DNA of 64,000 bases from Leucoraja ocellata (lineage: Eukaryota), in assembly GCA_036785375.1 (NCBI GenBank), contig JAWMAR010001278.1, forward strand, positions 186,001 through 250,000. Reading direction: 5' to 3'. The position numbers and the translations under genes were made by a program. Shown piece after piece: positions 31,031 to 51,461 of the stretch. The notes under the pieces are model-generated. The model was not told the origin of the DNA. It ran no database searches and saw only the letters and a list, made by a program, of their open reading frames with translations. Numbering within the stretch: the stretch's first letter is position 1; every line of letters begins with the position of its first letter.

Positions 31031-31070
31031 ATGATCGGGAGATCGTTCTTCCTCCTCTCCCTTCTCCAAG
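31031..31070 (+). CDS. Siglec-like exon: signal peptide MIGRSFFLLSLLQ
   Basis: Acceptor ttccag ends at 30988, ACAATG start, phase-1 donor gtacca. Confidence 0.75.
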
Positions 31071-34000
31071 GTACCATCAGCAGCAACTCAGAAGTGTTTA
31101 CGGGGAGTGATGCATTGGGGGAGGGGCGGTGCGGAGGGAGTGATGCCCTGGGGGAGGGGCGGTGAGGAGGGAGTGATGCACTGGGGGAGGGGCGGTGAGG
31201 AGGGAGTGATGCACTGGGGGAGGGGCGGTGAGGAGGGAGACTCTACCACTACGCCACCATGCTGCTCTTCTACGCTCTGTTCACACCGGGTCCACAGCGC
31301 AGGATAAACGGTGTGGGAAGTCCAGTGAACTGACAGGGTGTTCACTGCTAAAGATTGTTCCTTCTCTCCTCAGCCGTGATGTCGGGAGAGTGGAGTGCGT
31401 GGTATCCCGAAGCCGTGACAGCGCAGAATGGTTTGTGTGCACGGATTCCGTGTAACTACTCGTACCCGTCGAATCTGAACAGTAAACCACGGACTGGAAT
31501 CTGGTTTAACAGTGGGTCGCTCAATAATCCTGCAGACTTCCACTCCGGGAATCCCAGTCTAGAATCAACAAAGTTACAGCATCGGACCCGGCTGTCAGGA
31601 GACCTGATAGACAACGACTGTTCCCTGGTGATAGACAACGTCACGCCGCAAGATGAAGGTCGTTATTTTTTCAGAGTTGAATTCGGAGGGGAAAATAATT
31701 ACAGCTTCCACACTGTAACACAGCTCAGTGTTAGTGGTAAGTGCTCTGTATAATTCACTCATTCATTCAACAGTTTCTCCCAGCTGTTATCAGGCAACTG
31801 AACCAACCTACCACAACCAGAGAGCAGTGTTGAACTCCTGTTGACCTCACTGGTGACCCATCGGACTATCCTTGATTGGACTTTGCTGGCTTTACCTTGC
31901 ACTAAACGTTATTCCCTTATCATGTATCCATACACTGCAAATGGCTCGATTGCAATCATGTATAGTCTTTCTGCTGAGGCAGATTGTAGTTCAGGACCGC
32001 TCCCTGGTTGTGGTAGAATGATTCAGTTGCCTGATAACAGCTGGGAAGAAACTGTCCCTGAATCTGGAGGTGTGCGTTTTCACACTTCTATAACTAGTAA
32101 AAACATCTTTGCTCGTGTGGGACTGGGATTTCAATGTGAACCGATGTATCCAGTGATATTTAACTAACAGTATTTGTTTTTCTGTGTGTTAGATTTCACG
32201 GATAAACCCACGATATTCCCTGCTGAATTGGTGGCAGGAAAGCCTGTGGACATGACCTGCTTCTTCACCACCACGTGTGATGGACCGGCACCCACCTTAA
32301 CCTGGGTCACCCCCGCTGATGAACCACCGTCAACCTCACACAGCGTAACTCAGAAGGGTGACACTCTGACATATACTTCTGTTCTGTCCCTGACCCCAGC
32401 GCTCAAACATCACGGACAAAACCTCACGTGCAGAGTCACATACCCAACTGTGTCATCGGAGCAGACCCTCACACTGACTGTGGAATGTAAGTACGGAGAT
32501 CGTTTATTGTGCAGGAACATCAATAATCTATTAGCAGTGCTGGTATATAAGGTCATAGACGATAGGTGCAGAATTAGGCCATTCAGCCCATCAACTCTAC
32601 TCTGCCATTCAATCATGGCTGATCAATCTCTCTCTCCTAACCCCTTTCGTCTGCCTTCTCCCCATATCTTCTGACCCCTGCATTAATCAAATCAAAAGCT
32701 GGAGAAACTCAGCAGCATATCAGGAGAGAAGGAATGGGTGATGTTTCGGGTCGAGAGCCTTCTTCAGACTGAAAGTTACAGGAAAGGGAAACAAGAGATA
32801 TAGACGATGATGTGGAGTGATGTATGACCTACCTGATCTCCTGGTTGCTAAACACATTAATTCTCCATTCCCATTCCCACACTGAACTTTCTGTCCTCGG
32901 ACACCACTATTGTCAGAGTGAGGTTAAATGCAAATTGGAGGATCAGCATCTCATATTTTGCTTGGGCAGTTTACAGCCCAGTGGTATGTATATTGATTTC
33001 TCTAACTTCAGGTAGCCCCGGCATTCCCTCTCTCTCCATCCCTCCCCCACCCAAGTCTCATCAGCTTCTTGTTCTCACCCAACAAACAGCTAACAACGGC
33101 CTGTTCCCTTTATCATCGTTAACTTTTTGCATATCTTTCATTCTTTGTTCTATATGTCCCTACACCATCGTCTATATCTCTCATTTCCCTAAACATAGAA
33201 CTAGTGTGTGAATGTGTGATCGATGGTTGGCGCGGACTCCGTGGGCTGAAGGGCCTATTTCCACAGTGTATCTCTACAGTCTGAAGACTAAAGTCTTTTA
33301 CAAGGATCAACGAAAGTGCCGCAAAACTGGTTGCTGAATGTTATCTGTTTGCAGACGCCCCCCAGAATCTCTCAATCACTTCCCCCGACAATGTGAACAA
33401 TTCCTGGGTCAGTATAAAGGAAGGAAACTCTGCAGCGATCCTCAGCTCCCTCCAGAGTTTCCCAGCGTCTAACCTGATGTGGAGACATCGGTGTCACACT
33501 GAACACAACATGTTCCAGCAACGAGCTGTGGATGGACATAGACATAACCATAGAAAATAGGTGCAGGAGGAGGCCATTCGCCCCTTCGAGCCAGCACCAC
33601 CATTCATTGTGATCATGGCTGATCGTCCCCCATCAATAACCCGTGCCTGTCTTCACCCCATATCCCTTGATTCCACTAGCCCCAAGAGCTCTATCTAACT
33701 CTCTTAAATCCATCCAGTGACTTGGCCTCCACTTCCCTCTGTGGCAGGGAATTCCACAAATTCACAACTCTCTGGGTGAAAACGTTTTTTCTCACCTCAG
33801 TCTTAAATGGCTTCCCCTTTGTTCTAAGACTATGGCCCCTGGTTCTGGACTCGCCCAACATTGGGAATATTTTTCGTACATCTACCTTGTCCAGTCCTTT
33901 TATGATTTTATACGTTTCTATAACATATCCCCTCATCCTTCTAAACTCCGGTAAATACAAGCCTAGTCTTTTCAATTCCCTCAGCTGACAGGGAAGGACG

Positions 34001-37000
34001 CTGGGGTCTATCAGTGCGTGGCAGAGAATGAACACGGGACAGCAGAGAGGGATGTGACCCTCACTGTAGAATGTGTGTAGACACGCACTGTCATGTCTAT
34101 GTAAAGGCAGATGGTTTATTGGCCCATGAGAGATGCTGGAATTCACTAACACACACACTTGAACCTATGTCCTCTGGTCCTCGATTCACCTACTCTGGGC
34201 AAGAGACTCAGTGAATCTACCCGATCTATTCCTCTCATGATTTTAAACACCTCTATAAGATCACCGCTCATCCTCCTGCGCTCCAAGGAATAGAGTCCCA
34301 GCCTGCTCAACCTTTCCCTATAGCTCAGGCCCTCTAGTCCTGTCCACATCATCATGAATCTTCTCTGCACCCTTTCCTGCTTGACAACATACTTCCTATA
34401 TTTCCTCTCTCCTCTTCTAAGATAAGGAAGATTAGATAAAATTATTTGAAGCATTGTGTGCAGTTCTGGTCACCCCATTACAGGAAGGATGTGGTCAGGG
34501 TGCACAACGCTGCCTAGTTTAGAGAGTATTACCAATAAGGAGTTTTAAGGAGGGCACACATTGGTTCAACGGTAGAGTTGCTGCCTCACAGCACCAGAGA
34601 GCCAGGTTGAATCCTCACTACGGGTGCTTGTCGGTACGGAGTTGGCAAGTTCATCCCATAACCTACGTGGGTTTTCTTCGGGTGCTCCGGTTTCCTCCCA
34701 CACTCCAAAGATATACAGGTGTGCAGGTTAATTGGCTTGGTATATTTGTAAATTGTCCCTAGTGTGTGCAGGATAGTATATGTGTCGGGATCGCTGGTCA
34801 GCGTGGACACGGTGGGCCGAAGGGCCTGTTTCCATACTGTATCTCTAAACTAAACTATAAAAGTGGTTGGTACACAAAATTGCTGGAGAAACTCAGCGGG
34901 TGCAGCACCATCTATGGAGCGAAGGAAATAGGCAACGTTTCAGGCCGAAACCCTTCTTCAGACTGATGGGGGGTGGGGGGGAGAAGGAAGGAAAAAGGGA
35001 GGAGGAGTTGCCCGAGGGCGGGGGGGATGGGAGGAGACAGCTCGAGGGTTAAGGAAGGGGAGGAGACAGCAAGGGCTAGCAAAATTGGGAGAATTCAGCG
35101 CGTTCATGCTATCCGGACGCAAGCAACCCAGGCGGAATATGAGATGCTGTTCCTCCAATTTCCGGTGTTGCCCACTCTGGCAATGGAGGAGACCCAGGGC
35201 AGAGAGGTCGGAATGGGAGGGGGAGTTGAAGTGCTGAGCCACCGGGAGTTCAGGTAGGTTATTGCGGACTGAGCGGAGGCGTTCGGCGAAACGATCGCCC
35301 AACCTCCGCTTAGTCTCCCCGATGTAAATCAGCTGACATCTAGAGCAGCGGATGCAGTAGATGAGGTTGGAGCAGATAAAGGTGAACCTTTGTCGCACCT
35401 GGAACGACTGCTTGGGTCCTTGAATGGAGTCGAGGGTGGGAGGTGAAGGGACAGGTGTTGCATTTCTTGCGGTTGCAACGGAAAGTGCCAGGGAAGGGGG
35501 TGGTACGGGAGGGAAGGGAAGAATTGACAAGGGAGTTGCGGAGGGAGCGGTCTTTGCGGAAGGCAGACATAGGGGGAGATGGGAAGATGTGGCGAGTGGT
35601 GGGGTCACGTTGGAGGTGGAGGAAATGGCGGAGGATTATGTGTTGTATTTGCCGGCTGGTGGGGTGAAAGGTGAGGACCAGGGGGACTTTGCCCTTGTTG
35701 CGAGTGCGGGGATCGGGAGAGAGAGCAGTGTTGCGGGGTATGGATGAGACCCTGGTGCGAGCCTCATCTATGGTGGCGGAGGGTTCATGTTCACAAGTGA
35801 TGGGAGCACAATAAGGCCATTTGACCCATCAAGTCTACTGCCATTCGATCATGGCTGATCTATTTCTCCCTCCCCTGCCCCATTCTCCTGCCTTCACCCC
35901 ATAACCTCTGACACCCGTACTAATCAATAATCTATCTGTTGCCCCGGCACACGGCATCGAAGAAGATGGCACTGGCCACCACCGATTAGTAGAACATCTG
36001 CAGCTTCTTGCTGCAGATGTTGTAGGAGCGGAGCCTTCTCAGAAAGCTCTGTCCCTTCTTGTGCAGGGCCTCAGAGTTCTTGGATCAGTCCTATTTACTG
36101 AAGATATAACACTAAATGCTGGAGCAGACTAAAATGCTGGAGAAACTCCGTGGGTGAGACAGCATCTATGGAGCGAATGAAATGGGCAACCTTTCGGGTC
36201 GAGGCCCTTCAGACTGATGTGAGGGTGGGGGGGGGGGGGGGGGGGAGAATGAAAGAGGCGGAGACAGTGGGCTGAAGGAGAGCTGGGAAGGCGAGGAGAA
36301 AGCCGGGACTACCTGATATTAGAGAAGTCAATGTTCATACCGCTGGGGTGTAAACTGCCAAAGTGAAATATGAGGTGCTGCTCCTCCAATTTACGGTGGG
36401 CCTCACTCTGGCCATGGAGGAGGCCCAGGACAGAGAGGTCGGATTTGGAATGTGAGGATGAGTTGAAGTGCTGAGCCACTGGGAGATCAGGTTGGTTATT
36501 GCAATGCTGGAGTAACTCAACGGGCCAGGCAGCATCTCTGGATGGAAGGAATAGGTGACATTTTGGGTCAAGACCTTTCTTCAGACTGGTGATATTTGCA
36601 TAAGGTACTTGTACTCCCTGGTAAACTGTTTAACCATGGAGAGCATCCACAACACACTGCCAAGGGCAGTGATGGAGGCAGATAGGACAGATCCTTCTCT
36701 CCAGAGATGCAGCCTGTCCCGCTGAGTTTACTCCAGCATTTTGCGTTTGATCTGGAAACATAGAAAAATAGGTGCAGGAGTAGGCCATTTGGCCCTTCAA
36801 GCCAGCACCACCATTCAATATGATCGTGGCTGATCTACTAAAATCAGTATCCCCGAGTCCTGATTTTTCCCCATCCCTTGATTCCTTTAGCCCTAAGTGC
36901 TAAATCTAACTCTCTCTTGAAAAAAATCCAGTGAATTGGACTCCACTGCCTTCTGCGGCAGATAATTGCACAGATTCACAACTCTCTCGTGTCTTGTTCC

Positions 37001-40000
37001 TCCCTCTCCAGATGCGCCAGTGATTTCCCGGGATTCGGGATGCACTCACACACCTGAGAGTGTCACCTGTGTGTGTGCGGCCAGGTGCAACCCACCCGGA
37101 GAGCTCACCTGGCACCTCCCCCTCGCCAACTTCAGCGGAAATCAAACCCAGGGACGTCTCCACATCTGGCAGGTGGCAAGCGGGCATCTGGTGAATGGCT
37201 CCCTCACTCTGAGAGGGGGTGGGGGAGGGGAGAACGTTACTGCCGTGTGCTCAGTCCGAAACCGGCACGGGGAAGCCATGTTCATGGTGTATCTGTGGAC
37301 GGAAGGTGAGGACATTTATGGGCGAGGGAAGTCAGAGAGCCAGAGGGTCATACTGTAATGGCCATTTCTACCTTTTACAATGTCCAACTTTCCATTGCCA
37401 TTACTACACAGGTAAGTAGGAGTGATCTTACACAGACCAAAACAGAACAGATCTTCCAGTCATTCTTTATTGAAGTAGTTGTACAAACAAAGTGATGAAT
37501 GTACCAGGTTCCCTTTATTCTCATACAAGTTGTAACTTCCTGTCCTCCCGATCTGTGTGAACTGTGTACCCTCCACCTCCTGTAGCTGGTCTGAATCACT
37601 CCCTGTCCACTAAGCCCATGTGTTACACCCCTCCATTCATCAAATGACCGCCACCAAGTGTCCAAAATAATAGTGCTAGAAATATCTAGACAAACTAATA
37701 TAATATGCCAACAGTAGCTGGCCGAAACATAAATGACTCCTACACATACCGTGTGGAAACAGGCCCTTCAGCCCAACTTGCCCACACCAACCACCATGTC
37801 ATACCTACACGAGTCCCACCTGCCTGCATTTGGCCCATACCCCTGCAAACCTGACCTCATCATGTACCTGTCTAATTCTCGAGTGATGGCAACATGGCCA
37901 GAGGATCTTGGATGACGGAGGAACTGAAGGAAATTCACATTAGGCAGGAAATGGTGTTGGGTAGACAGATGGGACTGAAGCTGATAAATCCCCAGGGCCT
38001 GATGACCTGCATCCCAGGGTACTTATGGAAGTGGCTCAAGAAATTGTGGATACATTGGTGATCAATTTCCAATGTTATATAGATTCAGGATCAGTTCTTG
38101 TGGATTGGAAGGTAGATAATGTTTTTCCACTTTTTAAGCATGGTTTAAGAGAGAAAACAAGGAATTATAGACCAGTTAGCATGACATAGGTGGTGGGGAA
38201 GGTGCTGGAGTCAATTATAAAAGATGAAATAGCGGCATATTTGGATAGCAGTAACAGGATCAGTCGGAGTCACATTGATTTATGAAGGGGAAATCATGCT
38301 TGATTAATCTTCTGGAATTTTTTGAGGATGTAACTGGGAAAATGGACAAGGGAGAGCCAGTGGATGTAGTGTACCTAGACTTTCAATAAGTACTAGACTA
38401 AGTGGGACCCATTGGGTCCCAAACACCACGGGGAGTGTGTGTTGGGGAGGGGTGGGTGAGAAAGTGTGTATGTGTGCTGGAGGGGTTTCCAAGGGGGGAG
38501 GAGGAGGGATGTGGGGGAGGAGGGGGGTGTTGTGTGCGTGGGGTGAGGGAGGGAGGATGTGGGAGGGGGAGGGAGTGGTTTGGGGGAGGGTTGTGTGTGG
38601 GCAGGGCGTGTTGTGGATGAGGGGTTTTCAGGTGGGGGAGGGTGTGTGTGGGGTGGGGATTGTGTGGGGGGGGGGGAGTTTGTGTGTGTGTGGGGAGAAG
38701 CGGGGGTTGTGGGAGGAGGGGGGGTTGTGTGGGGGAGGGGGGGTTGTGTTTGGGGAGGGGGGTTGTGTGGGGAGGGGGGATTGTGTGGGGGAGGGGGGGT
38801 TGTGTGGGGGAGGGGGGGTTGTGTGGGGGAGCGGGGGTTGTGTGGGGGAGGGGGGTTGTGTGGGGGAGGGGGGGGTTGTAGGGGAGAGGGGTGTGTGGGC
38901 AGGGGGTGTGGTGTGGGGTGCATTGTGGGGGTGTGTCGTCAGGGAGGTTGTGAGGGGTGTGTGGGAGGTAAGGGGGTGTGGGGGGAATGGTTGTGGGGTG
39001 GTGAGGGGTGTGTGGGGTGGTGAGGGGTATGTGGGGTGGTGAGGGGTATGTGGGGGGGTTTGGGGAGAGAGGTCTGTGGGCAGGGGGTGTGGGAGGGAGG
39101 GGTGTGGGGGGAGGGGTGTGGCGGGAGGCGTGTGTGGCAGGGGAGGGGTATGGAGCAGGGGGGGAGAGAGAGCTCAGAGAAAAGACGGGGAAGAGCCATG
39201 GGGAAGTGTGCGGCATTACGGGGAGGGGGTGCGGCAGCCAGCGAGGAGGACCAGAGGGGAAGGGGTTGGGGGTGCGATGGGGACTCACAGCGGGCGCTGG
39301 TCACTTCGCTGGTCTCCCTCCTCCGCAAGGCTCGAGGACTCAATCAGCACGACTTGAGGACTCAGTCCCGCCTCCGGGGCTTTATTCTCCTCACCCCACC
39401 CGATGATTAACAGCGGGTGCCAGAAGGGGCGTAACCTTCATGGTGACTGACAGGCGAGAAGACCGATCTACTGATCTCACGATTTTTTAAACCTTCATAA
39501 CTTTTGTAATCAGAACAAAATTTGGTGTACTTGGAGCAGAGGACGGTGAGTAAGGTGGCGATATATCCTAGCGATATTGGGTACCGTTTTTACGCAAATT
39601 TAAAAACAACGCAAACGGGAAGAGGACAAGATGAGAGTTTTAGTAATAGTGTTGATAGATTTGACAAGGTCCCACATAGGAGATTAGTGGCAACATTAGA
39701 GCACATGGTATTGGGGGTAGGGTACTGACATGGATATAAAATTGGTTGGCAGACAGGAAACAAAGAGTAGGGATTAACGGGTCCCTTTCAGAATGGCAGG
39801 CAGTGACTAGTGGGGTACCGCAGGGCTCAGTGCTGGGAATGCATCAATTTACAATATATATCAATGATTTAGATGAAGGGATTCAAAGAACCATCAGCAA
39901 ATATGCAGATGACACAAAGCTGGGTGGCAGTGTGAACTGTGAGGAGGATGCTATGAGGATGCTGAGTGACCTCAGCAGGTTGGATGAGTGGGCGGGTGCA

Positions 40001-43000
40001 TGGCAGATGCAATTTAATGTGGATAAATATGAGGTTATCCTCTTTGGTGGCAAAAACAGGAAGGCAGATTATTATCTGAATGGTGTCAAGTTGGGAAAAG
40101 GGGAAGTACAAAGAGATCTTGTTCATCAGTCACTGAAAGTAAGCATGCAGGTACAACAAGCAGCAAAGAAAGGCAATGGCATGCTGGTCTTCATTACAGC
40201 AGGAGTTGAATATAGGAGCAAAGAGGTCCTTCTGCAGATGTACAGGGCCCTGGAGAGACCACACCTGAAGTATTGTGTGCAGTTTTGTTCTCCAAATTTG
40301 AGGAAAGATATTCTTGCTATTGAGGGAGTGCAGTGTAGGTTCATGAGGTTAATTCCCGGGATGGCGGGACTGTCATATGTTGATAGAATGGAGCGGCTGG
40401 GCTTGTATACACTGGAATTTTGAAGGATGAGAAGGAATCTTATTGAAACATATAAGATTATGAAGGGATTGAACACGCTAAAGGCAGGAAAAATGTTCCT
40501 GTTGTGGGAGTCCAGAACCAGGGGCCACAGTTTAAGAATAAGGGGTAGGCCATTTAAAATGGAAATGAGGAAAAACTTTTTTACCCGGAGAATTGTGAAT
40601 CTGTAGAATTCTCTGCCTCAGAAAGCAGTGGAGGCCAATTCTCTGGATGCTTTCAAGAGAGAGTTAGATAGAGCTCTTAGAGATAGCGGAGTCAAGGGAT
40701 ATGGTGAGAAGGCAGGAACGGTGTACTGAATGTGGATGATCAGCCATGATCACATTGAATGGCCTTGCTGGCTCGAAGGGCCGAATGGCCTACTCCTGCA
40801 CCTATTGTCTATTGTCATGAATCTTCTCTGCACTCTTTCCAGCTTCCTTCCTAGAGCAGTGTGACTAAAACTGGACGCAATACCTCAAATGCGGTCTCAT
40901 CAACGTCTTGCACAACAACTAGACTCTAACATCTGCGGCAGGCAAGATATCATTGAGTCATAGCGACATTGCATGAAAACAGGCCCATATCCATCTAAAC
41001 ATCCTCTCACAGAGTTATAGTGATACATTATGGAAACAGGTCCTTTGGCCCAACTTGCCCTCACCAGCCAACATACCCCAGCTACACTAGACCCACCTGC
41101 CTGTGCTTGGTCCATATCCCTGCAAACCAGTCCTATCCATGTACCTTTAAAACTGTTTTGTAAATGTTGGGATAGTCTCTGCCTCAACGGCCTCCTCTGG
41201 CAGCACATTCCATACACCCACCACCCACTGTGTGGAAAAGTTACCCCTTAGATTCCTATTAAATCTTTTTCCCCTCACCTTGAACCTATGTTTTCTGATG
41301 TTCGATTCCCCTACTCTGGGCAAGAGACTCTGCGCATCTACCCGATCTAATCCTCTCATGATTTATACACTACTATAAGACTACGTTACAGTTTAGTTTA
41401 TTGTCATGTGTGCGCCGAGCTACGGTGAAAAGCTTTTGTTGTGTGCTAACCAGTCAGTGTACAGACAAAACATGATTACAATCAAGCTGTTTGCAGTGTT
41501 TACATATATGATAAGGGAATAATGTTTAGTGCAAGGTAAAGGCAGTAAATTCCGATTAAGGATAGACCGAGGGTCACCAATGAGGTAGATAGTAGTTCAG
41601 CACTGCTCTCTGGTTGTGGTGGGATGGTTCAAGGTGTATCTGTGGTTAGTTTAGTACAGTTTAGCTTATTGCCACGTGTACCGAGGTACAGTGAAAAGCT
41701 TTAGTTGTGTGCTAACCGCAAGAAATAGCATAAAGTTGTGGACACAGCCCAGACCATCGCACAATCCAACCTCCCTATCATCGACTCCATCTACACCTGT
41801 GGGAGATTTCAACTTTCCACACATAGACTGGGAAACACATTCTGTAAATGGGCTGGATGGGTTGGAGTTTGTAAAATGTGCGCAGGATAGTTTTTTGCAG
41901 CAATACATAGAGGTACCTACTAGAGGAGGGGCAGTGCTGGACCTCCTGTTAGGAAATGAGATGGGACAGGTGGCGGAGGTATGCGTTGGGGAGCACTTCG
42001 GGTCCAGTGATCACAATACCATTAGTTTCAATATAATTATGGAGAGGGTCAGAACTGGACCTAGGGTTGAGATTTTTGATTGGAGAAAGGCTAACTTTGA
42101 TGCGATGCGAGATGATTTAAAAGGAGTGAACTGGGACATTTTGTTTTATGGGAAAGATGTAGAAGAGAAATGGAGGACATTTAAAGTGGAAATTTTAAGA
42201 GTACAGAATCTTTATGTTCCTGTTCGGTTGAAAGGAAACAGTAAAAATTGGAAAGAGCCCTGGTTTTCAAGGGAAATTGGACATCTTGTTCGGAAAAAGA
42301 GGGAGATCTACAATAATTATAGGCAGCATGAAGTAAATGAGGTGCTTGAGGAGTATAAGGAATGTAAAAATAATCTTAAGAAAGAAATTTGAAAAGCTAA
42401 AAGAAGATATGAGGTTGCTTTGGCAAGTAAGGTGAAAGTCAATCCAAAGGGTTTCTACAGCTATATTAATAGCAAAAGGATAACGAGGGATAAAATTGGT
42501 TCATTGGAGAGACAGAGTGGACAGCTATCTGCAGAGCCAAAAGAGATGGGGGAGATATTGAACAATTTTTTTTCTTCGGTATTCACCAAGGAGAAGGATA
42601 TTGAATTATGTGAGGTAAGGGAAACTAGTAGAGTAGCTATGGATACTATGAGGTTCAAAGTAAAAGTACTGACACTTTTGAAAAATATAAAAGTGGATAA
42701 GTCTCCAGGTCCTCACAGGATATTCCCTAGGACACTGAGGGAAGTTAGTGTAGAAATAGCCGGGGCTATGACAGAAATATTTCAAATGTCATTAGAAACG
42801 TGAATAGTCCCCGAGGATTGGCGTACTGCGTATGTTGTTCCATTGTTTAAAAAGGGTTCTAAGAGTAAACCTAGCAATTATAGACCTGTTAGTTTGACTT
42901 CAGTGGTGGGCAAATTAATGGAAAAGATACGTAGAGATAATATATATAAGCATCTAGATAAACAGGGTCTGATTAGGAACAGTCAACATGGATTTGTGCC

Positions 43001-46000: not shown

Positions 46001-49000
46001 AATAAATAATAAATAAATAATAAAACATATTAAAAATAAAATTGAAATTGAATTAAAAATTTAACAAAAGCACAAACACAGAAAATCCACAACACAACAT
46101 AACATAAATGGCACCCAGGTGAGGAAGGCACCATAGTCCAGCCAGCCTCCCCTCCGTGTCCATCCGTGGTCGGGGCCTTCCAAGCACCCGCAGTCGCCGC
46201 CCCGGGTGGCCCGATGTTCAGGCCCTCACGCCGGGCTGGTGGAACGCCGATGCTGAACCCCGACGGTGAGCATCTTCCTCCTCAGCGGCCCGGACCTCCT
46301 GATCAGCCGTCTCCCGCTGCCGGAGTCTGCAGCTCCTGAGTCCACAGGCCGAGCTGGGCAGAGTCGCAGGACCCCGCGTTGTAGTCAGCGCCGCCCGCGT
46401 TGGGAGCTCTGCAAACCGCAGCTCCATGATGTTGGTGCAGCAAGTCCAGCACTCCGGGCTCCAGATGGCGACCCCCGGTAAGGCATCGCCAGCCCTGCGA
46501 TGTTCCAGCGCTGTCCCGCCGCTGCTGGAGCTCCAGTCGATCCCGGCAGGAAAGGCCGCGACAATCCAGGTAGGTAGGCCGCTGTGGGGGGAGGGGGGGG
46601 GGGGGGAGGACGCGACTCGAATAATAGTCACGTCCTCACCAGGAAGCGGCTGAAGTACGGTATCCCCCGCACCGTGCCCTCTTCCCCCACATAAAAACAC
46701 CAAAAAAAACCACAAAAAAATACACTTTAACATAACTAAATAAACAAAAAAACAAAAAGATACCGGGCTGTAGGTGGAGGCTGCTGGCACCAGCGCCACC
46801 GGAAGTACAAGAGTTGTTGGGGGAGTCCAGAACCAGGGGCCACAGTTTAAGAATAAGGGGTAGGCCATTTAAAACGGAGACGAGGAGAAACGTTTTTACC
46901 CAGAGAATTGTGAATCTGTGGAATTCTCTGCCTCAGAAAGCAGTGGAGGCCAATTCAATGGATGCTTTCAAGAGACAGTTAGATAGCGCTCTTAAAGATA
47001 GCAGAGTCAAGGGATATGGTGAGAAGACAGGAACGGGGTACTGAATGTGGATGATCAACCATGATCACATTGAATGGCGGTGCTGGCTCGAAGGGCCGAA
47101 TGGCCTACTCCAGTACCTATTGTCTATTGTCTTGAATCTTCTCTGCACTCTTTCCAGCTTTCTTCCTAGAGCAGTGTGACTAAAACTGGACGCAATACCT
47201 CAAATGCGGTCTCACTAACGTCTTGCACAACAACTAGAAACTAACATCTGCGGCAGGCAAGATATCATTGAGTCATAGTGACATTGCATGAAAACAGGCC
47301 CATATCCGTGTGAACATCCTCTCACAGAGTTATAGTGATACATTGTGGAAACAGGCCCTTTGGCCCAACTTGTCCACACCAGCCAACATGCCCCAGCTAC
47401 ACTAGTCCCACCTGCCTGAATCTCTCCCTGCACTGGAGACCCGACCTTTTCTCGTCGGGTCTCAGTCGTCGTTGAGGCCGTAACGAGGAGCGGCCTCCAA
47501 CAGGAAGAGACCGGGGACTCAGGTGTCGACTCACCGTTGCCGTCGCGGAGCTGGCCGAGTCCGGAGCGGTGGAGGAGCGCTGCTGCTGCTGCTGCTGATG
47601 CTGTTGCTGCTGCTGCTGCTGCTGCCGGAGAGTCGGAGGCTCTCTACAGGTCTGTGGACGACGGCGCCGGGAGCCCACGGCTCCCTGGGGGGAGACCGCT
47701 TTTCGGGGCTTCTGCGGCGGCGACTTCTCCCGCCCGAGTTGCGGGGTCGAAGAGCTCCTGGAGCGGGGCCTGACACCACTGCCCCGCGCGGCTGGAATGG
47801 CCGCGGACTCTGCGAGCGCACACCGGGGGCTCCAACATCAAGACCCGGTGTGCGACCTCGCACCACCCGGCGTGGCTTTAATGGCCGCGGGACAATCGCC
47901 ATCGCCAGCCGGGGGCTTTGACTTTGACTCTGACATCGGGGGGGGGGGGGGGGAAGAGTGCAGTGGAGAGAGAAGTTTATTTGGCCTTCCATCACAGCTA
48001 TGTGATGGATGTTTATGTTAAATGTAATTATGTCGTGTCTGGGGTCTATTTGTGTGTAATGTCTGGCTGCAGAAACGGCATTTCGTTTGGACCTCCAGGG
48101 GTCCAAATGACAATTAAATTGACTCTTGACTCTTGACTCTTGACTGTGCTTGGTTCATATTCCTGCAAACCAGTCCTATCCATGCACCTGTATAACTGTT
48201 TTGTAAATGTTGGGATAGTCTCTGCCTCAACGACCTCCTCTGGCTGCACATTCCATACACCCACCACCCACTGTGTGGAAAAGTTACCCCTTAGATTCCT
48301 ATTAAATCTTTTTCCCCACACCTCAAACCTATTTTTTCTGATGTTCGATTCCCCTACTCTGGGCAAGAGACTCTGTGCATCTACCCGATCTAATCCACTC
48401 ATGATATATACACTACTATAAGACTACGTTACAGTTTAGTTTAATGTCATGTTTACCCAGCCACAGTGAAAAGCTTTTGTTGTGTGCTAACCAGTCAGTG
48501 TACAGACCATACATGATTACAATCAAGCTGTTTACAGTATTTAGATACATGATAAGGGATCTGGTGTGAAAACGCACATCTCCAGATTCAGGGACAGTTT
48601 CTTCCCAGCTGTTAACAGGCCATTCTACCACAATTAGGGAGCAGTCCTGAACTACTATCTACCTCATTGGTGACCCTCGGACTATTTTTGATCAGACTTT
48701 GCTGGCTTTACCTTGCACTAAACCTTATTCCCTTTGTTCTGTATCTGTACACTGTGGACAGCTCGATTGTAATCATGTATTGCCTTTCCGCTGACTGGAT
48801 AGCACGACACAAAAGCATTTCACTGTACCTCGTTACACCTGACAATAAATTAAACTGTAAAAACTGAAAACACACCTCTTGTTTTTACAGATAAAGGCTT
48901 CAGTATTTGGAAGGCAGTTTTGCTTACAGCAGGGATAATACTGATGGCTGTGCTAGCTGGATTCATCATCTACAAGTATATACTGCGGTAAGTTTAAATA

Positions 49001-51461
49001 AATCCACATTTTTACTTCCAAATCCATCTCTTTGTCATCTGCTTATGACTGCTTCTGCCAGGCTAACTCCTGTTCACAGACACAAAGTGCTGGAGTAACT
49101 CAGCGGGTCAGGCAGCATCTCTGGAGAACATGGACAGGTACAAAGTGCTGGAGTAACTCAGCAGGTCAGGCAGCAACTCTGGGGATTCAGGAATAGGTGA
49201 CATTTCGGGTTGGGACCTTCTTCAGACTGAAAGGTTGAGAAAGTTAGAACAAATCAGACCCAGCGACAGATGGCCTTTTGACTGTTGTGAGCCGTTTTGG
49301 GCCCCATATCTGAGGGAGAATGTGTTGTCTCGGGAGAGGGTCCAAAGGATGTTTACGAGAATTATTAACATATGATGAGTGTTTGACACTTACTGGGCCT
49401 GTACTCACTGGAGTTTAGAAGGATGAGGGGGGGACCTCATTGATATTTAATGAATAGTGAATGGCCTGGATAGAGTGGATGTGGAGAGGATGTTTCCACT
49501 AGTGGGAGAGTGAGTTTAGGACCAGAGGCCACAGCCTTAGAATTAAAGGACTACCTTTAGGAAGCATAGTAGGAGTTTCTTCAGTCATAGGGTGGTGAAT
49601 CTGTGTAATTCTTTGCCACAGAAGGCTGTGGAGGCCAAGCCAATCAATATGTTTAAGGCAGAGATAAATAAGTTATTCATCAGTACGGGTGTCAGGGGTT
49701 ATGGGGAAAAAGGCAGGAGAATGGGATTAGGAGGAAGAGTTAGATCAGTCATGATTGAATGGCAGAGTAAACTTGATGGGCCGAATGACTTCATTCTGCT
49801 CCTATCATTAATAACCTCACGACTTTATGACCAACGTCTAATACAACTGCAACTTTATACTTGGACTTTGCTGATGTGCTGTAAACTTGGTTTGATCTTC
49901 TGTTGCTGCAGGAGGGAAGATGCTTCAGGAAACCAAGACACCAATGTGATCTACTGCCCACAATCTGCCACCAATCAGGTAGTGGAACTTTGTATTTAAT
50001 CTCAACTACAGATGATACAAACGTGGGTACAAAAAGCTGGAGTAACTCAGTGGAACAGGCAGAATCTCTGACGAGAAGGAACAGGTGATGTTTCGGTCGA
50101 GACTCGAGGGGCCTGAGCTACAGGGAGAGGTTGAGGAGGCTGGGACTCTATTCCTTGGAGTGCAGGGGGATGAGGGGTGATCTTATAGAGGTGTATAAAA
50201 TCATGAGAGGAATAGATCGGGTAGATGCACAGAGTCTCTTGCCCAGAGTAGGGGAATCGAGGACCAGAGGACATAGGTTCAAGGTGAAGGGGAAAAAAAC
50301 CTGCGGGGTTACTTTTTCACACAAAGGGTGGTGCGTGTATGGAACGAGCTGCTGGAGGAGGTAGTTGAGGCTGGGACTATCCCAACGTTTAAGAAACAGT
50401 TAGAAAGGTACATGGACCAAGCGCAGGCAGGTGGGACTAGTGTAGCTGGACATGTTGGCCGGTGTGGGCAAGTTGGGCAGAAGGGCCTTTTTCCACAATG
50501 GATGACTCTATATAGATGATGATGTAGAGAGAGATAAAGAACAATGAATGAAAGATAGATGTAAACAAAGTAACGATGATAAAGGAAACAGGCCACTGTT
50601 AGTGGTTTGTTGGGTGAAAACGAGAAGCTGGTGCGACTTGGGTGGGGGAGGGATGGAGAGAGAGGGAACACAGGGCTACCTCAAGTGAGGGAAATCAATG
50701 TTCATATCACTGGGCTGTAAGCTGCCCAAACGGAATATGTGATGCTGGTCCTCCAATTTGTGTTTAGCCTCACTCTGTCAATGGAGGCGACCGAGGACAG
50801 AAAGGTCAGTGTGGGAAGGGGAATTAAAGTATTTAGCAACCGGGGGTATGAATATTGATTTATCTAACTATGTGAGAGTGTGTGAGTGTGGGAGTGGGTG
50901 TGAGAGAGAGAGAAAGTTGGAGAGAGGGGGAGACGGGGCGAGAGAGGGAGAGAGAGAGAGTGGGTGAAACTGCGAGTGTGAGAGACACAGTGCCTGAGTG
51001 TGAGCGAGTGAGAGAAAGAGGAGAGGGAGAAAGGGGGAGAGAGAAAGTGTGAAACTGCAAGTGAGAGGAGAGGGAGAGGGAGATAGAGTGAGAGAGGGGG
51101 AGAGAGAAGGAGAGCGAGTGTGTGTGAGAGGAGAACATCAACAACATGGCTGAACCTGGGTCTGTGGGAGTACAGGAGTTGTGAACCTTCTCACTGATGG
51201 TATTAAATGCCGGGCCACACTGCTCTGTACTAAACCCACAACTGCCCGTCTGCTTCCCTTTCCTTCCAGGACGCGGGGAGTGGAGAGAACGGGCCGGCCC
51301 CAGTGGAGCGGAAAGAAGGGGGGGAATCGGGAGAGGGGGAAGAGCAAGCGGTCGTGTACGCCAAACTGCAGGAGGTGCTGAGCAGCGGAGACACCGGGCA
51401 CAGTGGCGAGGGGGTGGAATACGCGGAGCTCTGGTTCCAGTCCAAGCAGGGGAAGGGGTAG
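31031..51461 (+). CDS. Siglec-family (MAG/CD33-related-like) inhibitory receptor; join(31031..31070,31374..31736,32193..32486,37012..37305,48891..48987,49912..49978,51270..51461), 448 aa if the dead exon 33355-34072 is skipped
   Basis: All listed exons have AG/GT boundaries and compatible phases, and the 1347-nt join is open. Architecture: SP-V-C2-(dead C2)-C2-TM-ITIM-ITIM. Confidence 0.8.
31104..31238 (+). repeat. 33-bp G-rich VNTR (4 copies) in the intron after the signal-peptide exon
   Basis: TGATGCACTGGGGGAGGGGCGGTGAGGAGGGAG at 31108, 31141, 31174 and 31207. Confidence 0.9.
31374..31736 (+). CDS. Siglec V-set (sialic-acid-binding) exon
   Basis: EWSA..GLCARIPCNYSYP..GIWF..RTRLSGDL..NDCSLVI..DEGRYFFRVE..YSF: Siglec Cys pattern, essential F-strand Arg and G-strand aromatic. 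Confidence 0.93.
32193..32486 (+). CDS. Siglec C2-set domain 2 exon
   Basis: DFTDKPTIF..GKPVDMTCFFTTTCDGPAPTLTW..SVLSLTPALKHHGQNLTCRV; carries the extra Cys for the interdomain disulfide. Confidence 0.92.
33355..34072 (+). pseudogene. Disabled Ig C2/I-set exon (domain 3) of the Siglec-like gene
   Basis: YAPQNLSI..IKEGNSAAILS(S)LQSFPASNLMWRH / frameshift / GVTLNTTCSSNELWMDI [CR1 33540-33977] PQLTGKDAGVYQCVAENEHGTAERDVTLTVE. The B-strand Cys codon is AGC. Confidence 0.85.
33540..33977 (-). mobile_element. 5'-truncated CR1 inserted inside the Siglec Ig exon
   Basis: RLGLYLPEFRRMRG..FTQRVVNLWNSLP plus CATAGAAA-type tail; same family as 14770-15200. Confidence 0.9.
34868..35783 (-). mobile_element. 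Penelope-like (Neptune-type) element 3' portion
   Basis: Cys-rich linker CNRKKCNTCP, then NLIYCIRCSRCQLIYIGETKRRL (GIY-YIG), and a terminal repeat with a hammerhead-like core near 34933-34961. Confidence 0.85.
37012..37305 (+). CDS. Siglec membrane-proximal Ig exon (MAG domain-5-like)
   Basis: YAPVISRDSGCTHTPESVTCVCAARCNPPGELTW..GSLTLRG..AVCSVRNRHG; ctccag and gtgag boundaries. Confidence 0.9.
37885..40817 (+). mobile_element. CR1 LINE split by a Helitron
   Basis: Degenerate RT at 37960-38392 resumes at 39660 (FDKVPH) and runs through the 3' tail. Confidence 0.85.
38393..39659 (-). mobile_element. Complete non-autonomous Helitron with internal minisatellite
   Basis: Minus strand: A|TC start; 3' hairpin GGGACCC-AAT-GGGTCCC, then ACTTAGT-CTAG|T; no TSD; the host CR1 rejoins across the site. 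Confidence 0.85.
41797..44745 (+). mobile_element. CR1 LINE (end of APE through RT and tail) with an internal insertion
   Basis: GDFNFPHIDW..LDLLL..SSDH (APE); KSPGP, NYRPVSLTS, GVPQGSVLGP, YADDT; C-terminal FFTQRVV. Confidence 0.9.
45886..46814 (-). mobile_element. Non-coding GC-rich retroposon (SINE-like or deleted LINE)
   Basis: Interrupts a CR1; (GAATACAA)n tail preceded by AATAAA on the minus strand; no RT ORF. Confidence 0.6.
47419..48143 (+). mobile_element. Non-coding GC-rich retroposon with a (CTG)n tract
   Basis: (CTCTTGA)n tail, 3-bp CTG duplication; absent from the paralogous segment at ~41100. Confidence 0.65.
48891..48987 (+). CDS. Siglec-like transmembrane exon
   Basis: DKGFSIWKAVLLTAGIILMAVLAGFIIYKYILR; tttttacag and gtaagt boundaries; no charged residue mid-TM. 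Confidence 0.85.
49912..49978 (+). CDS. Siglec-like cytoplasmic exon 1
   Basis: REDASGNQDTNVIYCPQSATNQ; phase 2 to phase 0 fits both neighbours. Confidence 0.75.
51270..51461 (+). CDS. Siglec-like terminal exon with two ITIMs
   Basis: DAGSGEN..EQAVVYAKLQEV..EGVEYAELWFQSKQGKG*; ccttccag acceptor. This frame is absent from the ORF track. Confidence 0.88.
   Translation, partial: DAGSGENGPAPVERKEGGESGEGEEQAVVYAKLQEVLSSGDTGHSGEGVEYAELWFQSKQGKG

What the first reader, a model, noticed from the sequence alone, without database searches (positions are those of the whole stretch)
33355..34072. Single-exon death: three lesions in one Ig exon while all other exons stay open
Seen: Cys-to-Ser, a frameshift near 33489, a 438-bp CR1 insertion and a weak donor (gtgtgt) all lie in this phase 1-1 exon. 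The other seven coding exons have no disabling change and join into 448 aa. Inference: the exon is constitutively skipped and the receptor shortened from four to three Ig domains under continued selection, rather than the whole gene being a pseudogene.
Basis: partly seen in the sequence, partly recalled or inferred. Interest (0 to 1): 0.7.

Follow-up and report, generated by a model that had tools for sequence, protein, structure and literature searches.

The report
Inherited dead exon in skate Siglecs
A jumping-element insertion wrecked one immunoglobulin-domain exon of a skate immune-receptor gene, and nearly every close copy of that gene in the genome carries the same scar; the exon is likely spliced out, which would leave shorter receptors whose predicted sugar-binding tip has kept diversifying.

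Summary
All four lesions are real, and the other seven exons join into 448 aa. But this is not one gene's accident. The 438-bp antisense LINE fragment sits at one identical point in 37 of 38 closely related Siglec-like genes. The 2-bp deletion is in 32 of 45 dead copies, the GTGTGT donor in 21 of 45; only Cys-to-Ser is private. Amblyraja radiata models carry the same scar. The window copy also lost the next Ig exon by deletion, so it went five to four to three domains, not four to three. After the insertion the V exon diversified (dN/dS 3.1, in-frame loop indels), so the family likely stayed in use. Against: other exons give dN/dS near 1, like the dead exon (0.78); 17 of 34 complete copies are broken; this copy's open frame alone is not significant (P 0.13); no RNA showed the skip. 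Closest parallel: KIR lineage III pseudoexon 3. The scan had notes on this family, none on this exon.

The parts
31031..31070 (+). Signal-peptide exon
   Evidence: ATG to GT donor; 40 nt and open in the 19 of 37 paralogue loci where it fell inside the fetched stretch; matches the N-termini of P0003-P0006
31374..31736 (+). V-set exon with Siglec-type Arg114, Trp20, Tyr123, Cys35/40/96; hypervariable across paralogues
   Evidence: Pfam V-set E 9e-12; best PDB hit MAG E 1e-21; dN/dS 3.13
32193..32486 (+). C2-set exon (C2a), no indel in 38 copies
   Evidence: Pfam C2-set_2 E 2e-10
33355..34072 (+). Dead I-set exon (I3a), phase 1-1, 718 nt
33444..33444 (+). Cys-to-Ser change, private to this copy (1 of 44)
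33487..33488 (+). Site of the 2-nt deletion, shared by 32 of 45 dead copies and by A. radiata models P0004 and P0121
33536..33973 (-). 438-nt antisense LINE (CR1-like) 3' fragment; same right junction in 47 of 47 copies examined
34073..34078 (+). Donor GTGTGT (21 of 45 dead copies; 16 keep GTGAGT, 8 have lost GT or moved it)
34158..34159 (+). Junction of a deletion (1.7 kb against L003, 2.7 kb against L026) that removed the second I-set exon I3b; shared by 10 of 38 genes
37012..37305 (+). Membrane-proximal Ig exon (I4)
   Evidence: weak Pfam C2-set_2 E 0.013
48891..48987 (+). Transmembrane exon
49912..49978 (+). First cytoplasmic exon
51270..51461 (+). Last coding exon with two ITIM-type motifs (VVYAKL, VEYAEL) and stop

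Best explanation
The stretch is a dead Ig exon broken by one LINE insertion that 37 of 38 close paralogues share, and it is likely skipped so that this copy would make a three-Ig inhibitory Siglec-like receptor. Steps: (1, shown by shared junctions) one antisense LINE end inserted into the first of two I-set exons of a five-Ig gene (V-C2-I-I-C2). (2, inferred) The exon grew from 282 to about 720 nt, is poorly recognised, and since it is phase 1-1 its loss keeps the frame. (3, shown) The gene was then duplicated to at least 38 copies; the dead exon picked up further lesions on different branches, while the V exon gained amino-acid changes and in-frame indels in loops that match the ligand face of MAG. 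(4, shown) In 10 copies, this one included, a deletion removed the second I-set exon. (5, inferred) The window copy is an expressed, sialic-acid-binding, ITIM-signalling receptor. The I-set and last Ig exons behave as loose spacer cassettes, so open copies have 2 to 5 Ig domains.
For: Same right junction in 47 of 47 dead copies; 42 exact junction matches genome-wide on 12 contigs, control 0. No subfamily gene has an uninterrupted I3a: 36 of 38 have the broken exon right after C2a, L022 and L027 have deleted it there. Five-Ig layout also in stingray models P0045 and P0048. V dN/dS 3.13, 2dL 74 against 1; tree-free piN/piS 2.2, CI 1.5-3.4. V length variants 13 in-frame to 6 frameshifting, dead exon 0 to 10, p 4e-4. 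Frameshift variants: 0 in 38 C2a, 0 in 28 TM, 1 in 34 first cytoplasmic exons against 10 in 45 dead exons, p 0.002. 17 of 34 completely fetched genes are open from V to a Tyr motif if broken symmetric exons are skipped. Donor destroyed in 8 of 45 dead copies. An unnamed Logan protein P0011 joins leader, V and C2a without introns, with V 93% identical to L027, so the subfamily is likely transcribed. A. radiata models P0060 and P0122 join C2a straight to I4 (models only). Exons over 300 nt splice less well in most tests (PMC3467050 passages).
Against: No RNA junction for this subfamily was seen. dN/dS does not separate live from dead exons outside V: C2a 1.26, I3b 1.05, I4 0.87, tail 1.05, dead exon 0.78; pairwise the dead exon has the lowest ratio, 0.50, CI 0.28-0.89, which I cannot explain. 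The acceptor AG is intact in 45 of 45 dead copies and the donor is wild type in 16 of 45. PMC3467050 also found 42% of human exons over 1000 nt well included. A. radiata model P0004 (two accessions) includes the exon and stops in the insert. V exons are broken in 8 of 38 genes, so pseudogenes are common. On this copy's private branch only about 2 lesions were expected, P(0) 0.13, and its C2a has 3 private amino-acid changes to 1 silent. Gene conversion among copies can bias all tree-based figures.
Confidence: 0.63

Rival explanations
1. The exon is often included. The message then stops at 33558-33560 and is either destroyed by nonsense-mediated decay or makes a 300-aa secreted V-C2 decoy; full-length receptor comes only from leaky skipping.
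For: Acceptor intact in 45 of 45 and donor wild type in 16 of 45 copies. A. radiata model P0004 has this truncated form under two accessions, which may reflect RNA support (my inference). Related models end by reading through an I-set donor (P0010, P0012, P0037).
Against: No AATAAA or ATTAAA between the stop and 37011 in this copy. The reading frame into the insert differs among copies (13 of 45 lack the 2-nt deletion; further frameshifts near the exon start). TM and first cytoplasmic exons stay nearly free of frameshifts.
Confidence: 0.2
2. The window copy is a young pseudogene or unused copy of a birth-and-death family, open only because too little time has passed.
For: 0.9% private divergence, 2.0 expected lesions, P(0) 0.13; 17 of 34 complete copies fail the open-frame test; dN/dS near 1 outside V; private C2a changes 3 replacement to 1 silent.
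Against: All 12 splice ends, Arg114, the Ig cysteines and both Tyr motifs are kept. Family-level V diversification must have happened in genes that already carried the dead exon, unless imported by conversion; V silent diversity (0.053) is like that of other exons (0.039-0.063), which argues against import from older genes.
Confidence: 0.12
3. The insert is removed as a new intron through cryptic sites (for example donor after 33407, acceptor before 33985), leaving a 141-nt in-frame stalk exon.
For: Such open routes exist, and the 33985 acceptor has a pyrimidine fraction of 0.76 partly supplied by the insert. A. radiata model P0121 uses another cryptic route out of the exon. It would fit the low dN/dS of the dead exon.
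Against: The parts that would be kept carry their own frameshifts and stops in several copies; the donors are weak by a crude consensus count (6 of 9 or less); the product is half a domain with one free Cys.
Confidence: 0.05

Closest known systems
KIR lineage III pseudoexon 3 (human KIR2D, macaque KIR1D; PMC6288254 and PMC2973822, passages read)
   Same: A whole expanding lineage of paired-type Ig receptors carries an Ig exon in DNA that is constitutively skipped despite intact splice sites, collects frameshifts, and shortens the ectodomain while ligand-binding parts are positively selected.
   Different: There the skip is shown in transcripts, the lost domain is the N-terminal D0, and the proposed cause is a 33-bp intron deletion. 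Here the exon is an internal spacer, the cause is a LINE insertion inside the exon, and the skip is inferred.
CD33-related Siglecs of mammals (PMC6288428, passages read)
   Same: V-set domain with essential Arg, two Tyr motifs, tandem copies, rapid change concentrated in Ig1, frequent pseudogenes.
   Different: Orthology was not tested; the ectodomain is closer in sequence to MAG. At least 38 close copies here, within 122 matches to the C2 exon.
MAG / Siglec-4 (PDB 5lf5; PMC5150538, passages read)
   Same: Best solved-structure match of the V exon (E 1e-21); R118, W22 WxxW, Y127 and C37 have aligned counterparts; five-Ig ancestral layout.
   Different: MAG is described as non-immune and confined to the nervous system; this is a hypervariable multigene family with ITIM-type tails and 2-5 Ig domains.
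Amblyraja radiata and Leucoraja erinacea predicted proteins P0003-P0006, P0037, P0060, P0121, P0122
   Same: Same subfamily (C2a 91-94% identical); P0004 and P0121 show the same 2-nt frameshift, P0004 also the read-through into the insert.
   Different: They are automatic models that treat the dead exon in four different ways; their V domains are at most 84% identical to any copy here, so they are likely from another species than the window.

Membership tests
Siglec | N-terminal V-set domain followed by C2-type Ig domains, single TM | tested here: met
   Pfam V-set and C2-set_2; TM exon; the top 18 of 26 PDB hits are Siglecs
Siglec | Conserved Arg on the F strand (MAG R118) with aromatic partners (W22, Y127) | tested here: met
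   R114, W20, Y123 align to MAG R118, W22, Y127; a few paralogues have Lys there
Siglec | Extra Cys pair linking Ig1 and Ig2 (MAG C37-C165) | tested here: met
   C35 aligns to MAG C37; C163 matches by spacing from C157; the bond itself is not shown
Siglec | Arg-dependent binding of sialylated glycans | not testable with these tools
   needs a glycan-binding assay
CD33-related Siglecs | Cytoplasmic ITIM plus distal Tyr motif | tested here: met
   VVYAKL and VEYAEL; the motif consensus is recalled
CD33-related Siglecs | Common descent with the mammalian CD33-related cluster | not tested
   no tree with mammalian Siglecs was built; best sequence hit is MAG
KIR-type lineage-wide pseudoexon (works-like) | Dead symmetric Ig exon inherited by a whole lineage of receptor genes | tested here: met
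   37 of 38 genes, one junction
KIR-type lineage-wide pseudoexon (works-like) | Constitutive skipping in transcripts | tested here: inconclusive
   8 runs laid, no junction from this subfamily
CR1 LINE | 5'-truncated 3' end of a reverse-transcriptase element with a short-repeat tail | tested here: met
   homology to the frame downstream of RVT_1; short-repeat tail at the left junction
CR1 LINE | Assignment to the CR1 clade by repeat library or RT tree | not tested
   no repeat library on hand; the name is recalled

The most novel reading that the evidence does not exclude
One LINE insertion founded a skate lineage of about 40 Siglec-like receptors, and the family now sets receptor height (2 to 5 Ig domains) by killing, deleting and re-duplicating symmetric spacer exons while only the V tip is under positive selection: a KIR-like system built independently in cartilaginous fish, with a retrotransposon scar that dates and marks the lineage across skate species.
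Probability: 0.4. Interest if true: 0.6.

Novelty: new variant of a known kind. Interest (0 to 1): 0.42.

Why it matters
It gives a second, independent case of a KIR-style inherited pseudoexon, with a visible cause and a built-in lineage marker. It also points to a large, positively selected Siglec-like family in skates for which my searches found no description. The scar explains why automatic annotation of these genes yields truncated or chimeric models. The principle itself, loss of a symmetric Ig exon in an immune receptor family, is known, which caps the surprise.

Tried and rejected
RNA: no RNA holder was listed for the stretch. The first lay-on (4 runs) was swamped by repeats, with no depth on C2a in the two raw RNA runs: no test. 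The second (4 runs, C2a only) laid one read and two contigs; both contigs run from C2 into an I-set exon, but their alleles match the outgroup subfamily (L038/L039 type), so they do not test the skip. P0011 ends before the C2a donor. dN/dS as the test of a dead exon: no separation outside V. Independent insertions at one site: rejected, one junction. I3b as a later gain: rejected, the window junction cuts through a microsatellite and a repeat fragment that are whole in L003. A strong inverted repeat looping out the exon in this copy: only 71-80% arms, not relied on. Use of the 33985 acceptor alone: frameshift and stop. Assembly duplicates as the source of the copy number: 32 of 36 extracted V exons are distinct, though L007/L008, L004/L013 and L017-L019 may be haplotype or very recent copies; some 1-nt indels in homopolymers may be sequencing errors. 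PMC516556 was not held. No structure or complex prediction was run.
Full report
Observation. The window holds one gene on the + strand: leader 31031-31070, V 31374-31736, C2a 32193-32486, the exon in question 33355-34072, I4 37012-37305, TM 48891-48987, and two cytoplasmic exons 49912-49978 and 51270-51461. Without the exon in question they join to 448 aa with one stop; with it, translation stops after 300 aa. Against an intact 282-nt paralogous exon (L040) the exon has a Cys-to-Ser change at 33444, a 2-nt deletion at 33487/33488, a 438-nt insertion at 33536-33973 and the donor GTGTGT for GTGAGT. The insert is an antisense LINE end (79.6% nt match to the end of the RT element at 40397-40819). 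The name CR1 is recalled.

What the gene is. The V exon matches Pfam V-set and MAG, Siglec-8, -5, CD33 and sialoadhesin structures. Arg114, Trp20, Tyr123 and Cys35 align with MAG R118, W22, Y127 and C37. The tail has two ITIM-type motifs. The nearest named proteins are skate models (Leucoraja erinacea, Amblyraja radiata; 91-94% in C2a). It is a Siglec-like receptor by sequence; binding is untested.

The family. C2a has 122 matches in the own genome. I fetched all 37 other full-length matches at 90% identity or more, and 11 of the 84 weaker or partial ones as outgroups. Of the 38 close genes, 37 carry at least one copy of the interrupted exon; 36 have it right after C2a, and none has it intact. 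The right junction is the same in 47 of 47 copies examined (45 in these genes, 2 in L100). A pattern search finds 42 exact junctions on 12 contigs, control 0, and 49 uninterrupted sites in I3b or outgroup exons. So one insertion preceded the expansion. The other lesions are nested: the 2-nt deletion in 32 of 45 left halves, donor GTGTGT in 21, GTGAGT in 16, TTGAGT in 7, GAGTGT in 1 of 45, and Cys-to-Ser in 1 of 44. A. radiata model P0004 reads the same frameshift into the same insert tail, and P0121 shows the same frameshift. Their V domains are at most 84% identical to any copy here, so the scar is likely older than the split between that species and this one.

Domain count. Most copies have a second I-set exon (I3b) between the dead exon and I4. 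The window copy lacks it through a deletion at 34158/34159, shared by 10 of 38 genes, which cuts a microsatellite and a repeat fragment that are whole in L003. Stingray models P0045 and P0048 have V-C2-I-I-C2. The path for this copy is therefore five, four, three. A four-Ig relative with an intact I3a-like exon before I4 exists in A. radiata (P0126), outside this subfamily by its C2 exon. Other copies duplicated an internal block (I3b, truncated C2a, dead I3a) up to three times, or have broken I3b (8 of 34) or I4 (9 of 26) exons. Of 34 genes fetched to the tail (4 cut by contig ends were left out), 17 are open from V to a Tyr motif if broken symmetric exons are skipped: five with 2 Ig, five with 3, five with 4, two with 5. 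The leader was seen in only 19 of the 37 paralogue loci, as it often lay outside the fetched stretch.

Selection. Codon models give dN/dS 3.13 for V (2dL 74), and 1.26 for C2a, 1.05 for I3b, 0.87 for I4, 1.05 for the tail and 0.78 for the dead exon, none of these different from 1. Pairwise ratios are 2.20 for V (CI 1.5-3.4), 0.65-1.00 for the live exons (CIs include 1) and 0.50 for the dead exon (CI 0.28-0.89); without CpG sites, distinct variants give 1.70 for V and 0.70-1.03 for the rest. Indels do mark it: 10-11 frameshift variants and no in-frame one in 45 dead exons, none in 38 C2a (p 0.003), and 13 in-frame to 6 frameshifting in V (p 4e-4). These are alignment variants, not proven independent events. 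I3b is no better protected than the dead exon (p 0.6). Variable V positions (63-65, 112-124) and the indel hot spot fall on the counterparts of the CC' loop and F-G strands, the ligand face of MAG. V silent diversity is like that of other exons, so the excess is in replacements. For the window copy alone, private divergence is 0.9%, about 2 lesions were expected and none is seen, P 0.13: not significant.

Splicing. Skipping is inferred, not shown. For it: symmetric phase, a length of about 720 nt where expansion past 300 nt reduces splicing in most tests (PMC3467050), lost donors in 8 copies, and conserved TM and tail frames. Against it: intact acceptor in all copies, wild-type donor in 16 of 45, good inclusion of many long human exons (same paper), and model P0004. 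A. radiata models treat the exon in different ways: included to the stop (P0004), cryptic exit (P0005 entry, P0121 exit), or absent with C2a joined to I3b, I4 or TM (P0037, P0060, P0122, P0006); I could not see their DNA or RNA support. P0011, from a 994-nt Logan contig, joins leader, V and C2a and has V 93% identical to L027. It suggests transcription of the subfamily but ends before the junction. Eight runs were laid and none tested the junction.

Comparison. It works like KIR lineage III pseudoexon 3, which is constitutively skipped despite intact splice sites and carries a 5-bp deletion in macaque KIR1D (PMC6288254), in a lineage that expanded under positive selection (PMC2973822). Fast change of Ig1 is known for CD33-related Siglecs (PMC6288428). 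It is not a KIR, and descent from the CD33-related cluster was not tested. What differs is the cause (a LINE inside the exon), the position (internal spacer) and the animal group.

Literature seen. Passages only, by term search: PMC6288428, PMC6288254, PMC3467050, PMC5150538, PMC2973822. Search listings only for the rest. PMC516556 was not held; I saw only its title in a reference list. No supplements were read, and they, or subscription papers on Siglec evolution, may describe this family. Searches that found no description of skate Siglec expansions or of this exon: (0 papers). Earlier scan notes concern other copies of what seems to be this family; none concerns this exon.

Verdict. Observation confirmed; interpretation partly supported and widened from one gene to a lineage. 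New variant of a known kind; interest 0.42; best explanation 0.63.

Noticed in passing
   Followed up: partly
L003, L006, L015, L030, L031 last exon: A shared 45-nt insertion with a stop cuts off the distal Tyr motif; these copies also share a 3-nt longer TM exon.
   Followed up: no
L009, L017-L021: Six copies have no TM exon in the fetched DNA but keep tail exons; they could encode secreted forms or be pseudogenes.
   Followed up: no
L007 with L048: The last cytoplasmic exon lies on the opposite strand together with a second inverted TM and cytoplasmic set: a tail-to-tail rearrangement.
   Followed up: no
L010, L020, L024, L031, L032, L037: An internal block of about 4.9 kb (I3b, 5'-truncated C2a, dead I3a) is tandemly repeated, three extra times in L020, adding live I3b exons along with dead ones.
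   Followed up: partly
L001, L003, L026 and other I3b-bearing copies, about 1 kb after the dead exon: An inverted copy of the same LINE end (91-93% identical to the window insert) could pair with the insert in pre-mRNA and hide the donor; the window copy lost it in the deletion.
   Followed up: no
window 33536-33973 against 31737-33535: Diversity among copies is about twice as high in the insert (0.066) as in the introns and exon part upstream (0.03), which suggests homogenisation of the 5' part by gene conversion or conversion of the insert by other LINE copies.
   Followed up: no
window 34033-34085: In run X21, 17 reads from related genes cross the I-set donor with the GTGAGT allele; read-through of that donor gives an immediate stop, as in models ending in TVECE, so secreted isoforms may exist.
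   Followed up: no
G000 C478, C1051, C2094, C2500 and others: Many tail-exon matches (72 in all) have no close C2a match beside them, so the same tail may serve other ectodomains or orphan fragments.
   Followed up: no
window 36756-36987: An older antisense LINE fragment ends about 25 nt upstream of the I4 exon; the I4 acceptor is mutated in 5 of 26 copies.
   Followed up: no
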